From NCBI GenBank assembly GCA_964016885.1, contig OZ024743.1:286998001-287062000 (forward strand): DNA of 64,000 nucleotides, in the 5' to 3' direction. The notes under the pieces were generated by a model, which was not told the origin of the DNA, searched no databases, and saw only the letters and a program-made list of their open reading frames with translations. This document shows, piece after piece, positions 22,596-38,444 of the stretch (position 1 is the stretch's first letter; each line of letters opens with the position of its first letter). A program made the translations under genes and the position numbers. The stretch is from Eledone cirrhosa (lineage: Eukaryota).

Positions 22596-23001
22596 AGGAT
22601 ACACCTCAGGAAACTTGAAACAGTGGCTAGGCATGTCTTGTTTTAATCAAATGAGATGCACACAACTATAACATATTTATTTATGTTATTCGTAATGTTA
22701 TAGCTACTCCAGTAAGAGAGATAATGTCACTTCTCAGACACAGTCAATGTATCCTGAATTAAATATTCATGTGTATATTACCAAATAACACATGCACAAG
22801 GGATAAGGTTTATGTAATACAGTATTTTAAGCCACTATTCAAAGAAAGAGATATTACTGAAGGTAGCAACACTGAATTAACATTTTAAGAATGCTAACAA
22901 GAAATATTGCAATTCTACAGATATCAGAGAAAAGAATTGTCTAATTTTTGTACTAATATATATATATATATCATCATCATCATCATCATATATATATATA
23001 T

Positions 23002-23317
23002 ATAAGTTGAGCCAACTTATGCAGCTTCATATGCAAATGAGATTAATCACCTCATTTACACAGACGAGAAAACTATATATTCTCGACTGTTTTCAAGTCC
23101 AGCAGTAGCAAGCGGTGGGAGGGACCATCCTGAAGAAGGCCAGTCAAGCCTGAAATGCATAGACGGTTGTCCCCCTTGCTTCTGCTGAACACCACCAGAG
23201 GACATTAGCCCTCAGTGTTTGCATAGCTACGGCTTCCTAAAACCGTGTTTCTTTAGAAATACGAAATTTCTATACATTTTTTAATAAAGCTATGCTTGAA
23301 GCGAAATCTTATTTCTG
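23002..23317 (+). mobile_element. Short non-coding hammerhead-containing element inserted in (TA)n
   Basis: Flanked on both sides by (TA)n; hammerhead core inside; a related diverged copy lies on the minus strand at ~42830-43050. Confidence 0.65.
23121..23173 (+). ncRNA. Type I hammerhead ribozyme (minimal)
   Basis: ACCATC-CTGAAGA-AGGC cagtcaa GCCT-GAAA-TGCA-TA-GACGGT: intact core, 4-bp stem II, palindromic stem III, AUA site. Confidence 0.75.
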
Positions 23318-23399
23318 ATATATATATATATACATATATATATATATATATATATATATATATATATATATATATATATATATATATATATACATATGT

Positions 23400-23990
23400 A
23401 TCACTCTGTAAAGTGGCTGCGATGGTGACACGGCAAAAAGTGCCCAGCCCACTCTGTAAAATGGTCGTGTAGGTGTCACGACAAAAAGCACCCAGTACTC
23501 ACTGTAAATTGGGGTTGACATTGGGAAGGCATCCAGCTACAGAACCAGACCAGTATGAATAATACATGGTCACCTGACCTAGGATTGCTCACGACAGGAC
23601 AATCCTGCCTAACCCATGCTAGCCTGGAAAATGGATGTAAAGATAGAGGTGATGATATGTGCTTATATACACAAATATGTATATATAGACCATGTGTGTA
23701 TATATGTATATAACATCCAGCCCACACTGTAAAGTGATTGTGTAGGTGTCACAACAAAAAGCAGCCAGCCCACACTGTTAAGTGGACATGTAAAAGACAC
23801 GGCAAAAAGCACCCAGCACACACTGTCAATGTGGTTGATGTTAGGAAGGGCATCCAGTCGTAGAAAACCAGCCAGAAACACTCCTTTATGAGCAAGACAT
23901 GGTCACCCAACCCAACTTGCCTCTGAATGGGACAAACCTGTCTAACCCATGCTAGCGTGCAAGATAGACGTTAATCGATGATGATGATGA
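23400..23990 (+). mobile_element. Two tandem RTE-type 3' end fragments
   Basis: Each has cactgtaaagtgg repeats, ggaaggcatccag and aacccatgctagc, ending in a gatgat tail (ends ~23657 and ~23990). Confidence 0.8.
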
Positions 23991-24114
23991 AGGTATATAT
24001 ATATATATATATATGTTAGGTAATTCCGAAGGAAAAGAAAAGGAAAAAAGAGTGCTCTATGTACAGAACAGAGCTATTTAATTAGAAATTGAATAACACA
24101 AAATAAAACTACTC

Positions 24115-24190
24115 CATTACCAAAGGTTTCTGGATCACAGACGATAATAATATACGTCTGGATTGGTCGTCAGACAGCGATATTATAGAT
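24115..24190 (-). ncRNA. Hammerhead-like motif in the inverted pLTR
   Basis: CTGACGA-CCAATCCAGACG..CGTCTGTGATCCA-GAAA-CCTTTGG-TA. Core intact; stem I and the base of stem II degenerate. Confidence 0.55.
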
Positions 24191-24906
24191 AAAAGATATG
24201 AAATGAGATTTAAAATCTGTTAAAAATTTGTTAGAAATTGGAAGTGAGGCTGGAAAAATAACGGGAAATATACTTAAGAAAAGAAGGGTAGGAAGAATAA
24301 AAAAAAAATATAGCAATATAGAAAAAGACATATGTGTACATACATGTAGAAATGAGATGATAGGGACTGGGGTCCATATCATTCCACTGCAAAGTGGTTG
24401 TGGAGGTGCCACAGCAAAAAAGCACCCAGCACTCACTGTAAATGAGGTTGGTGTTAGGAAGGGCATCCAGCTGTAGAAATCAAGCCAGAATCAGTTCCCG
24501 TCCCACCCTTGCAAGCAGGGAAAAAGTGGACGTAAAATGAAATGAATGAATATATACACACACATACACACATTCAGATAAAAGGAAAATATATATATAT
24601 GTATATATACATACATGTATATATACACATATATATATATATACAAACATACATGTCCATGGACATACACATATATAGTGTTTAAAGTAAGAGAGAGTGT
24701 TCAAGGTATAATATATAGTAAGTGTTGAATGTGTGAAAAGGAGCTCGTTCAAGGTGGGTAAGTCTCCAAAATGGTGTTTTGATACCGAGAAAGGAGGTGA
24801 GTTCTTATATGTGGGCAAATTTTAAATATCTCAGAATTAGAGTTAAAACAAGTGTTAGATTTCAGATTTTGTAGAATTCTTAAAGGAAATTTACCAGCAC
24901 TAACTA

Positions 24907-35255: not shown

Positions 35256-35379
35256 TACAATATATTAATATATACATATATATGTATATATGCATGTATA
35301 TGTATTTATGCATGTATATGTATATATATATGTATATATGTGAGTGTGTATATGACTGTATGTATGTCTGTATATTTTT

Positions 35380-35730
35380 TGCGTATGTATATGTGTATGT
35401 TCGTGGACATGTATGTTTGTATATATATATATATGTGTGTGTATATACATGTATGTATATATACATATATATATATTTTCCTTTTATCTGAATGTGTGTA
35501 TATGTATGTACACATATGTCTTTTTCTATATTGCTATATATTTTTTTTAAACTCTTCTTACCCTTCTTTTCTTATGTATATTTCCCGTTATTTTTCCAGC
35601 CTCACTTCCAATTTTTAACAGATTTTAAATCTCATTTCATATCTTTTATCTATAACATCTCTGCCTGACGACCAATCCAGAAACCTTTGGTAATGGAGTA
35701 GTTTTATTTCGTGTTGTTCAATTTCTAATT
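35380..35730 (+). mobile_element. Solo pLTR-like copy, inverted relative to 24080-24670, with stem-II-deleted hammerhead
   Basis: Reverse complement of 24080-24345 plus 24555-24670, without the SINE insert; CTGACGA-CCAATCCA-GAAA-CCTTTGG-TA at 35665-35692. Confidence 0.8.
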
Positions 35731-35788
35731 ATATATATATATATATATATAGTGACGAAACATAAGTCAATTGTATGAACTCATAATC

Positions 35789-35859
35789 CTTTATTTACTG
35801 CTATATATATTTCGATGATAGCCATTGTATGGCTATGACCTGATCAGGCAGTCAATAAG
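35789..35859 (-). ncRNA. Type I hammerhead, core variant CUGAUCA (probably inactive)
   Basis: TTATTGACTGC-CTGATCA-GGTCATAGCCAT aca ATGGCTATCATC-GAAA-TATATA-TA-GCAGTAAATAA. Confidence 0.7.
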
Positions 35860-36142
35860 TTTTTAGATATGCCAGCTCTGGGTTTTTGGTGTTGATGGTT
35901 TTAGAGCCTTGGGACACATGTCCCAAGGCTCTAAAACCAATTATAACACTATTATAACTCCGGAATTTATATCTTCGTTGAGTGCTCCCTATCCGCATAC
36001 TGAAGTACTGGATTTTACCAACACTTTTTTGCTTATATATATATATATATATATATATATATATACGATATTAAGAAATGGGAACTATATTTATAAAACC
36101 ATATTTATTTCATTATACATATTTCAAGGACACCAAGTTACA

Positions 36143-36675
36143 TTATGATTTTAAAGGATTGTAAATAAAATGAGTTAATCAGACAAAGTTAATATATACA
36201 TATATATATATATATACATATATATATATATATATATATACATACACACACACACATATATATATATATATATATATATATATATATATATATATATATA
36301 TATATATATATATATATATATGTGTGTATATATATATATATATATGTATATATTAACTTTGTCTGATTAACTCGTTTTATTTACAATCCTTTAAAATCAT
36401 AATGATATTATAATGAAATAGTATGGTAGAATATTAAATGTTAATTGAAGAAGTACTTTCATGCTTTCGCAATCTTCAGGTTCATATTCAGTGGTGACAG
36501 TCAAGTTTGCACAGTCGAAAATTGCAAACTTGACTGTCACCACTGAATATGAACCTGAAGATTGCAAAAGCATGAAAGTACTTCTTCAATTAACATATTC
36601 TACCATACTATTTCATTATAATATCATTATGATTTTAAAGGATTGTAAATAAAACGAGTTAATCAGACAAAGTTG
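36143..36675. repeat. Chained inverted repeats with two head-to-head hammerhead motifs
   Basis: 36355-36675 hairpin centred ~36515; each arm has CTGAAGA-TTGC (g/a)aaa GCAT-GAAA-GTAC-TT. 36143-36200 is a third copy of the arm end across a (TA)n tract. Confidence 0.85.
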
Positions 36676-38444
36676 GAATTCCTTTCATTAATATAATCTT
36701 CTATGCACAATCATACACACCCGTGTATATTTATTTACACACACACACACACACACACACACATATATATATATATATATATATATATATATATATATAT
36801 ATATATATATATACATACATGTATGTGTATGTAGAGAGAGGTGGGGTGATAGTATGTATGTATGTATAGAGAGAGAGAGATAGGGGGCGTTTAATACCTG
36901 AATAATGGAGGATCATGAAGACAGAGTCCTCAAACACTCCTTCCTGTGGGTCTAGTCAGAAGCAACTGAAGAAGAAGAAGAAGAAGAAGAAGAAGAAGAA
37001 ATGATGATGATGATTATGTCAGGTTAGTACCCAGATCGTTGTGACTGAAAAGTAAATTTTTTATTGTAGCAATGTGACTGAGACAATAGATTCATTGTGT
37101 TTATGAGTATGTATGTTAGTGTGTGTAAATTTTTAAAGAGTTACAGATAGATCTAAGATCTATAATCTACTTTGTAGAGGAAGCTTTATAGTGGCATTGA
37201 AGTTGTGCATTTCCAAGTATCTCTATCTTTGCTGATAGATCCAATGGCAAGATGACTGATACCTTCTCCCAACTGCATGAGGCTGCCTGAAATCCAGTCT
37301 ATTAGAACCACCTTAAATTTGACTGCTACAACTTCTACTTTATCAGGATGTACTCCTCTAGCCTTTGTCTTCCCAGACTCACTCACAAGGCAACAAGGTA
37401 GTGCAGATAGGTCACCTCCACTACGGCTAAAGAAGTCTATCTACCTTTCTACTAGACAGATGTTCTGACAAGAACTAGGAGTCCATCACTTCCATGGTAG
37501 CCATACAATACTCATTCACAGTTTTTTGTGTATTTCTATGACTCTGTATACTATTGCTAGCTAGTGGTTGGCCGTATGCTACATGCATTCATTTATGTAC
37601 AAGACAAGTCATTTACAGGTCAAACTGATGCTATATTAAAACCCCGTGGTTGTGAAACAAACCTCTGAACCATAGAGCTATGCATGTAGGGGAAGAATGT
37701 GTGTATGTGTGAATGTGTGTGTGTTAGAGAGATAGTGACTGACAATTTTTCATTCAAAGATACATATACATGGCTGTAGAAATAAATAAATGCTCCCATA
37801 TAAGCAGATTATGTGTCCATTAGGTGAATCTACAGTCATTCTACAATTGACATTCTAACAAAATATCTGTATGCTAATATTGAAACTTATGAAGGTGGAT
37901 AGAACCTATTGATTTTCCCATTGCATGTTGAATCCATCAATAGATTTGTTAAGGATATAGAAAACATTCCAGAAGCTCAACTTTTAACCTATCTTAATTA
38001 TTTTCTCATCCACAGGGAAGAGTCTTATGACTCTGTCAACAATTTTTGTATTATTAAAGAAAATGGAAATAAATACTAAAGAGACATGCCTTAAGTCATA
38101 CCATTAAGAATAAGGAATATTTGTGGAATATTCTTATTGGAATTTCCATTAAGTGCACACAATGAATTTGATATCGTCTTCTGGGACAGAAATCCAAAAT
38201 AAATGTCGATGGATGTGGCATTTAGCTACTTGATGTTATTCTGTGTTAACAGAAAACAAAACAATGATGGATGGTTATTCCAATACCAATATTTTCTGCA
38301 TCTTCATTAATTGGCTAATACTTGCACTCCAGAAAATTGGTTTACTAGATATCCTATAATGTGGTTAATACAATAAACAGACGGCCTTGTTTCAAGCTGG
38401 GAAATTCAAAAATAAATAATATAAACCTTTTCCAATCCCAGGAA

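What the first reader, a model, noticed from the sequence alone, without database searches (positions are those of the whole stretch)
22960..36800. Nest of Penelope elements, multiple unrelated hammerhead ribozymes and serial fold-back palindromes in (TA)n
Seen: in 14 kb there are two divergent Penelope-like ORFs; hammerhead cores at 23130(+), 24170(-), 31344(+), 34219(+), 35665(+), 35845(-), 36475(-) and 36555(+), with at least six unrelated stem sequences; and five long palindromes. Most modules are bounded by (TA)n. Known: PLE pLTRs carry minimal type I hammerheads with palindromic stem III and often insert with inverted ends. Inference: one TA microsatellite acted as a landing pad for many PLE families. 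Read-through transcription would be self-cleaved at several sites and release long hairpins, a possible ribozyme-punctuated dsRNA/small-RNA source or ADAR substrate.
Basis: partly seen in the sequence, partly recalled or inferred. Interest (0 to 1): 0.75.

Follow-up and report, generated by a model that had tools for sequence, protein, structure and literature searches.

The report
Penelope retroelements nested inside one another
This 14-kb stretch is a pile of about a dozen broken jumping-gene insertions of a known kind, half of them lying inside the TA-rich tail of one older element; it is likely inert debris, and similarly dense piles occur elsewhere in this genome.

Summary
In detail: all eight hammerhead cores (six families), two Penelope-like ORFs and six fold-backs are present. 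Both ORFs are broken Hydra-clade PLEs, a clade published as targeting (TA)n and already known from octopus.

Corrections: (1) Only 3 of the 8 hammerheads are intact; two further ones and a half one were missed. (2) There is no single landing pad. 24014-35729 is one two-armed Hydra element; six later insertions sit in two TA tracts of its own 3' UTR, whose order recurs in 11 of 20 other copies. (3) The fold-backs are mostly inverted insertion arms; 6 of 6 with outward 3' ends have one tailed and one tail-less end. (4) The nest is dense but not unique: 49 intact hammerheads in 100 sampled 10-kb stretches, and 1-2 of 100 are as dense as the nest.

Fold-back arms show no ADAR scars. No RNA data were available, so the small-RNA idea is untested. 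Side find: a very young 608-bp tandem family with a fixed U3·G8 core. The scan noted a similar pile-up elsewhere in this genome (e1-10354566).

The parts
23004..23317 (+). Family A: one unit of a ~320-nt tandem, hammerhead-bearing non-coding repeat (retrozyme-like) between TA tracts; intact type I hammerhead, core at 23130
   Evidence: 2393 first-look candidates, 40 scored, 93-95% identity; head-to-tail junctions in other copies
23402..23990 (+). Two SINE-like repeats separating family A from the host element
   Evidence: (many copies in the window); the SINE label is my recalled reading
24014..24880 (-). Host PLE1 left (inverted) arm: tail 24014-24075, hammerhead 24173 (stem II closing pairs lost), UTR piece, then inverted copy of the ORF end (24675-24880); SINE-like insert at about 24345-24545
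24906..27259 (+). Host PLE1 ORF, Hydra clade (RWK, HKT for DKT, YRDD, CxCX5C, CxxC/CxH); broken by frameshifts, stops, a SINE-like insert at about 25345-25733 and a ~146-nt deletion at 26974 that removes the GIY-YIG core
   Evidence: clade features from PMC8557442 section 11
27260..27788 (+). Host 3' UTR part 1, with two tail-like copies at 27560-27611 and 27657-27718
27789..28077 (.). TA/CA tract A of the host UTR (landing site 1; continues at 31435-31456 and 31612-31729)
   Evidence: Same tract between the same UTR parts in near-uninterrupted copies L219 and L224
28078..31434 (+). PLE2 (family C), 5'-truncated Hydra-clade element: inverted tail arm 28078-28145, broken RT-linker-GIY-YIG ORF to about 29773, SINE-like insert 29927-30130, long UTR, intact hammerhead 31344
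   Evidence: (GIY-YIG E 0.005, below cut-off)
31457..31610 (+). Family D stub: two-armed, perfect 29-nt fold-back, tail on the right; hammerhead not included in this copy
   Evidence: (hammerhead adjacent in L214)
31730..31875 (+). Host 3' UTR part 2
31874..32283 (+).
32310..32648 (-). Family F stub: two-armed fold-back (arms about 140 nt), tail on the left; hammerhead not included in this copy
   Evidence: L128; L228
32643..34310 (+). PLE3 (family G): 3' UTR only, with rearranged 5' inverted arms (32643-32851, 32986-33172); intact hammerhead 34219
   Evidence: (other copies run upstream into a PLE2-like ORF)
34311..35081 (+).
   Evidence: direct repeat 34307-34469 / 34917-35080; intact form in L121
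35102..35729 (+). Host 3' UTR parts 3-5: local inverted duplication 35105-35244, microsatellite-rich stretch, hammerhead 35665 with a 28-nt stem II deletion, tail-less 3' end
35752..36033 (-). Family I: two-armed insertion in the TA tract at the host's 3' end; hammerhead 35847 with G8C; 22-nt fold-back; tail on the right arm
36066..36147 (-). Family J stub: 3' half of a hammerhead and 3' end, related to family G
   Evidence: read from the sequence
36141..36736 (.). Family K: 59-nt stub (36141-36199), TA tract, then a two-armed insertion 36346-36736 with hammerheads 36479- and 36555+, both carrying the same mismatch at the first pair of stem I; tail on the right

Best explanation
The stretch is a nest of about twelve insertions from eleven Penelope-like or likely Penelope-dependent families, six of which lie inside the TA-rich 3' UTR of one two-armed Hydra-clade element, and it is likely inert debris. 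Shown: the host element spans 24014-35729; its UTR carries TA tracts in other copies too; the later insertions sit in those tracts and in the TA target at its end. Inferred mechanism: a Hydra GIY-YIG endonuclease cuts (TA)n, and both broken ends prime reverse transcription at two fixed start sites near the hammerhead. This gives outward-facing arms, one with a tail and one without, joined head to head as a fold-back. Most copies are 5'-truncated, so mainly the hammerhead-bearing 3' ends survive. Each insertion leaves TA on both sides, and the host brings extra TA tracts, so hits accumulate. The hammerheads then decay.
For: Order ORF-UTR1-UTR2/3-UTR4-hammerhead in 11 of 20 other PLE1 copies, with an inverted piece upstream in 9 of 20. 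TA tracts at the same places in L219 and L224. Hydra features met; Hydra-1_Obim listed with (TA)n preference. One tailed and one tail-less end in 6 of 6 two-armed inserts with outward 3' ends, and both end types among other copies of five families (PLE2's tail arm and K's left end read). Opposite-strand arms at 14 of 39 other family A copies (counted by eye). 98% of the nest matches repeats seen elsewhere. 49 intact hammerheads in 100 sampled 10-kb stretches; 35 of 49 next to (TA)n; variance/mean 1.9. In vitro, a PLE protein cuts and extends both strands and starts at two internal sites, and hammerhead cleavage was not needed (PMC11167929, parts 1-2 of 4).
Against: The nest is in the top 1-2% of sampled stretches and is the most stuffed PLE1 copy seen (8.5 kb of UTR span against 1.2-4.8 kb in 11 others). 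Enrichment of foreign hammerheads in other PLE1 UTRs is weak: 6 in 25.4 kb, in 4 of 11 copies, Poisson P 0.03 with paired arms counted twice. Two fold-backs (32986-33358, 35105-35244) are internal inversions that do not fit the tail rule. Family F arms are about as diverged (6 of 140) as host arms (6 of 160, 12 of 231), so insertion order is shown by position, not by age. The in vitro work is on a Poseidon, not a Hydra, element. Inertness is inferred, not shown.
Confidence: 0.85

Rival explanations
1. The nest is a functional locus: read-through RNA is cut by the ribozymes and releases long hairpins for small-RNA production or ADAR editing.
For: Hairpin arms of 22-186 nt, about 92-100% identical. 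The three intact hammerheads and the U3 variant all lie on the + strand. Stems I and III of 31344 and 34219 are cross-compatible, so a mixed dimer could form (predicted only).
Against: 5 of 8 cores are damaged. No polarised G·U mismatches in 10 arm pairs. Minimal PLE hammerheads showed no monomer and low dimer activity in vitro (PMC4209133, part 2). No RNA-seq ends at the anole PLE cleavage site (PMC11167929). No host-gene Pfam domain in 78 non-repeat frames of the window, only 2 RT fragments (short exons would be missed).
Confidence: 0.07
2. A single pre-existing genomic (TA)n received all families independently.
For: Nearly all modules are bounded by TA; tract C (35730-36817) and the tract around family A are not part of the host UTR.
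Against: UTR parts 1-5 and their TA tracts recur in order in other PLE1 copies; family A is separated from the host by unrelated repeats.
Confidence: 0.05
3. The palindromes are assembly artefacts.
For: No record spanned a junction or palindrome in the runs laid; microsatellite-rich DNA is hard to assemble.
Against: Arms differ by substitutions and indels in 9 of 10 pairs; the same two-armed form occurs at many other loci with different break points; the tail asymmetry matches published PLE structure (PMC8557442 passage).
Confidence: 0.03

Closest known systems
Hydra-clade Penelope-like elements, including Hydra-1_Obim of Octopus bimaculoides (Craig et al. 2021, PMC8557442; passages, section 11 and supplement rows read)
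   Same: RWK, DKT-like, CxCX5C, CxxC/CxH motifs; C-terminal GIY-YIG without CCHH; canonical 3' hammerhead; (TA)n insertion; inverted 5'-truncated copy and a tail at one end only. PLE1's N-terminus and RT follow Hydra-1_Obim closely (compared by eye).
   Different: PLE1 is about 3.6-3.9 kb, longer than the 'generally <3 kb' stated, with a microsatellite-rich UTR that collects later insertions; tails here are about 50-100 nt rather than 30-40. The main text holds no 'nested' passage.
Minimal PLE hammerheads (Cervera and de la Pena 2014, PMC4209133; parts 1-2 of 4 read)
   Same: Type I, palindromic short stem III, extra nucleotide at the base of stem II, many families per genome, mostly solo truncated copies, opposite-strand pairs 100-700 bp apart.
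   Different: Density here, about 49 per Mb, is far above the 2,000-9,000 per genome reported there (different descriptors, so not strictly comparable).
Metazoan non-LTR retrozymes (PMC7229834, passages; bioRxiv 10.64898/2026.07.22.740005, part 1 of 5)
   Same: Families A, E and H are non-coding tandem units with one type I hammerhead each, ending in (TA)n.
   Different: E and H units are about 610 nt rather than about 300; E has a fixed U3·G8 core and a long branched stem II; no circular RNA shown.
Poseidon element PAc of the anole (Frangieh et al. 2024, PMC11167929; parts 1-2 of 4 read)
   Same: Two reverse-transcription start sites giving an optional tail; AT-rich target; both strands cut and extended.
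   Different: Different clade; in vitro only; there the hammerhead overlaps the ORF start.

Membership tests
Hydra-clade PLE | RT followed by a C-terminal GIY-YIG endonuclease in one ORF | tested here: met
   PLE2: RT, linker, YIG motif in order (Pfam GIY-YIG E 0.005, below cut-off). PLE1: same order, core removed by a local deletion that other copies lack. Both ORFs are broken.
Hydra-clade PLE | N-terminal RWK motif | tested here: met
   PLE1 at about 25000; PLE2 is truncated before it
Hydra-clade PLE | DKG modified to DKT | tested here: inconclusive
   The window copy reads HKT in the right context; the pattern gave no hit in the 9 other loci scanned
Hydra-clade PLE | CxCX5C linker; CCHH absent; CxxC and CxH around the conserved E and N | tested here: met
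   CxCX5C and CxxC in both elements; CxH and absence of cysteines inside PLE2's GIY-YIG core read from the translation
Hydra-clade PLE | Canonical hammerhead near the 3' end and insertion in (TA)n | tested here: met
   31344 for PLE2; 35665/24173 for PLE1 (intact form in L218); ends abut TA
Hydra-clade PLE | Placement in the Hydra clade of an RT tree | not tested
   No reference set was available as a stored sequence; compared by eye with the supplement only
Neptune/Nematis or Naiad PLE | CX2-5CxxC linker with CCHH motif; N-terminal endonuclease in Naiads | tested here: not met
   Linker is CxCX5C, no CCHH in PLE2, endonuclease is C-terminal
Type I hammerhead ribozyme | Core CUGANGA...GAAA...UH with stems I-III | tested here: met
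   Met for 23130, 31344, 34219; not met for 24173, 35665, 35847, 36479, 36555, 34775; met with U3 for 31919
Type I hammerhead ribozyme | Self-cleavage | not testable with these tools
   Needs an in vitro assay
Non-LTR retrozyme (families A, E, H) | Non-coding tandem units, each with a type I hammerhead, dispersed at many loci | tested here: met
   E: 608-bp arrays on many contigs; A: tandem junctions; H: 610-bp direct repeat in the window, intact hammerhead in L121, longer arrays not shown
Non-LTR retrozyme (families A, E, H) | Expressed as unit-length circular RNA | not testable with these tools
   Needs RNase R-treated RNA

The most novel reading that the evidence does not exclude
Some Hydra elements spread their own target: a microsatellite-rich UTR is copied with the element and seeds new landing sites, driving a feedback that builds thousands of hammerhead nests and about 1e5 ribozymes in this genome. 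Within that traffic, families amplify with impaired ribozymes (the young 608-bp tandem family with a fixed U3·G8 core; the PLE1 subfamily without stem II closing pairs), which would mean that self-cleavage, and hence the RNA circle, is not needed for their spread in vivo.
Probability: 0.3. Interest if true: 0.55.

Novelty: new member of a known kind. Interest (0 to 1): 0.3.

Why it matters
As a locus it matters little: it is one of many dense piles of a published retroelement clade. It does give a clean anatomy of how such piles form (host-borne TA tracts, one-tail two-armed insertions) and a rough census of about 49 intact hammerheads per Mb. It also offers natural test material for the open question of what PLE hammerheads do: a recently amplified tandem family with a U3·G8 core, and two different families whose ribozymes could pair on one transcript.

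Tried and rejected
Rfam scan: 161 matches, 150 listed, none at gathering score, no hammerhead among those listed; mostly microRNA models hitting microsatellite hairpins.

ADAR scars (lead from e1-8671701): 10 arm pairs compared, G·U-type 9 against A·C-type 13, no polarity.

Scrambled hammerhead in the 608-bp unit (lead from e1-8668800): rejected, since the parts fall in ordinary type I order. A 4-bp pseudoknot there is possible but is not kept in the one diverged relative.

Runs: no RNA holder listed. Four runs laid on the middle part of the nest gave only short pieces from many copies; none spanned a junction, so assembly is neither confirmed nor refuted, and the right-hand part of the nest was not covered.

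Host gene: none found by Pfam in 78 frames.

Neptune assignment: first guess, dropped.

Literature on PLE UTRs as landing pads: searches listed no such paper; nested TE hotspots in general are in print (PMC2836564, listing only). The library lacks most subscription papers.

The search for C3 relatives of family E gave only 2 places, one of them homologous (L234).
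Full report
Setting. The window lies on contig C4 of a 3.0-Gb animal genome. The repeat content and the likeness of PLE1 to Hydra-1_Obim suggest an octopus-like cephalopod; this is inference.

Check of the observation. A scan for CUGANGA...GAAA...UH with stems I-III passed 23130+, 31344+ and 34219+ in the region, against a mean of 0.015 in 200 Markov simulations. 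Cores at 24173-, 35665+, 36479- and 36555+ are present but fail the stems; 35847- was found by homology. Comparison with other copies shows the damage. 24173 lacks the stem II closing pairs and 35665 also has a 28-nt deletion. 35847 has G8C, a change that abolished cleavage in the anole PLE ribozyme (PMC11167929). Six fold-backs pass my filter. Both ORFs are broken and 40% identical over 117 residues.

Every module is a dispersed repeat. First-look candidates (40 scored each, not copy numbers): A 2393, G 868, B 829, K 1412, I 1066, C 1659, E region 1214, PLE1 3' part 2111. 98% of the nest matches sequence fetched from elsewhere.

Anatomy. I fetched 10 kb around 20 of the top PLE1 hits. In 11 of 20 the ORF is followed, in order, by pieces that lie far apart in the window: UTR1 (to 27788), 31730-31875 and/or 35102-35183, 35268-35499, and the family B hammerhead. 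L222 shows the same chain plus tail in tandem before an ORF; 3 more show part of the chain; 5 show UTR1 only. In 9 of 20 an inverted piece lies upstream of the body. The near-uninterrupted copies L219 and L224 carry TA tracts between these pieces. So 24014-35729 is one two-armed insertion. PLE2 and stub D sit in its tract A; E, F, G and H sit in its tract B; I, J and K sit in the TA target at its 3' end; A sits in a separate tract.

Fold-backs. Six two-armed inserts with outward 3' ends (PLE1, PLE2, D, F, I, K) each have one tailed and one tail-less end. Among other copies both end types occur: tail/TA counts B 9/15, C 7/3, D 5/11, I 7/8, K 11/13, with 0-2 other per family; the F anchor is low-complexity and its counts are not usable. 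Opposite-strand arms lie beside 14 of 39 other A copies and at 17 listed K places (counted by eye). This matches the published PLE structure (PMC8557442 passage) and the two internal start sites with both strands extended in vitro (PMC11167929). That both ends of one break prime the two arms is my inference, also reached in scan note e1-8665316. The fold-backs at 32986-33358 and 35105-35244 are internal inversions. Arms differ in 9 of 10 pairs, without G·U polarity, which argues against both an assembly artefact and ADAR scars.

Clade. Section 11 of PMC8557442 defines Hydra by RWK, DKT, CxCX5C, CxxC/CxH, no CCHH, a canonical hammerhead and (TA)n insertion. PLE1 and PLE2 meet these as far as they are preserved; DKT reads HKT in the window copy. 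The supplement lists Hydra-1_Obim with (TA)n preference. No tree was built.

Background. I took 100 evenly spaced 10-kb stretches, 75 of them from the four largest contigs. They hold 49 strict hammerheads (0/1/2/3/4 per stretch: 67/24/3/5/1); simulated sequence gave 0.33 per 600 kb. This extrapolates to roughly 1.5e5 per genome. With damaged copies found by homology the total is 90. The nest's best 10 kb holds 5, matched or exceeded by 2 of 100, although the library favoured the nest's families and the count missed 35665 and the extra cores. 35 of 49 have (TA)5+ within 300 nt downstream, against 20% of random positions. Fold-backs number 69 in the sample; 1 of 100 stretches reaches the nest's 6. 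One to two per cent of about 300,000 stretches is a few thousand, with a wide margin (hundreds to about 20,000). Against my reading: locally the nest is a clear peak (7 of 14 cores in 264 kb), and other PLE1 UTRs are only weakly enriched in foreign hammerheads (6 in 25.4 kb, 4 of 11 copies, P 0.03).

Side result. 31874-32283 is a piece of a 608-bp tandem family at 98-100% identity. It can fold as a type I hammerhead with U at position 3 and 77 nt between the core boxes; the constrained fold is 4.7 kcal/mol above the free minimum. All 100 listed of 116 exact pattern matches have T there. A diverged relative, L234, has C3 and one two-sided change in stem II. A natural U3·G8 variant is in print from halophiles (PMC7151607 passage), so this is not unprecedented. 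In family B, 17 of 19 pattern matches lack the stem II closing pairs (some loci fetched twice and biased to the window copy's relatives). Both fit the in vitro result that cleavage is not needed for insertion, but activity is untested.

Function. Expression, cleavage and editing could not be tested. Published minimal PLE hammerheads are weak and work as dimers (PMC4209133). 31344 and 34219 could pair as a mixed dimer on a + strand transcript (prediction). Nothing here indicates selection on the locus.

Verdict. Real, explained, a new instance of a known kind. The host-borne landing pad is a modest addition that searches did not list. For context I also read part 1 of 3 of PMC13282606 (PLEs recently active in Octopus vulgaris) and passages of PMC7229834 (126,247 hammerheads in axolotl) and PMC3088659 (core variants). 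Interest 0.3.

Noticed in passing
window 40620 (-): A further strict type I hammerhead among TA runs outside the finding.
   Followed up: no
100 sampled 10-kb stretches (L063-L122, L173-L212): About 49 intact hammerheads per Mb from many families, roughly 1.5e5 genome-wide if the sample is representative.
   Followed up: partly
window 31874-32283; L124-L132; L234: Very young 608-bp tandem family with a fixed U3·G8 hammerhead core and a long branched stem II; one diverged relative has the canonical C3.
   Followed up: partly
window 27560-27611 and 27657-27718: Tail-like copies inside PLE1's UTR, upstream of the microsatellite part; the long UTR may itself be an older pile captured by read-through (inference).
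   Followed up: no
tails at 24014-24075, 28078-28145, 31529-31610, 35947-36033; L017: Tails of several families share a short hairpin ending in a GAG(T/C)(G/A)CT-like motif, a candidate reverse-transcription start signal.
   Followed up: partly
window 9458-12485 (-): Broken RTE-like LINE with endonuclease, RT and PHD matches; further RT fragments at 44215-44847, 50947-51562 and 60665-61063.
   Followed up: no
window 14939-15682: Two 21-bp tandem arrays flanking a SINE-like repeat.
   Followed up: no
window 21821-22240: A 139-nt-arm inverted repeat just left of the nest.
   Followed up: no
L069:8140 and L084:915: Hammerheads with stem II regions of 97 and 82 nt that short descriptors would miss.
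   Followed up: no
L224:5071-8700: About 3.6 kb of interrupted (TA)n beside a PLE1 copy, with few insertions in it.
   Followed up: no
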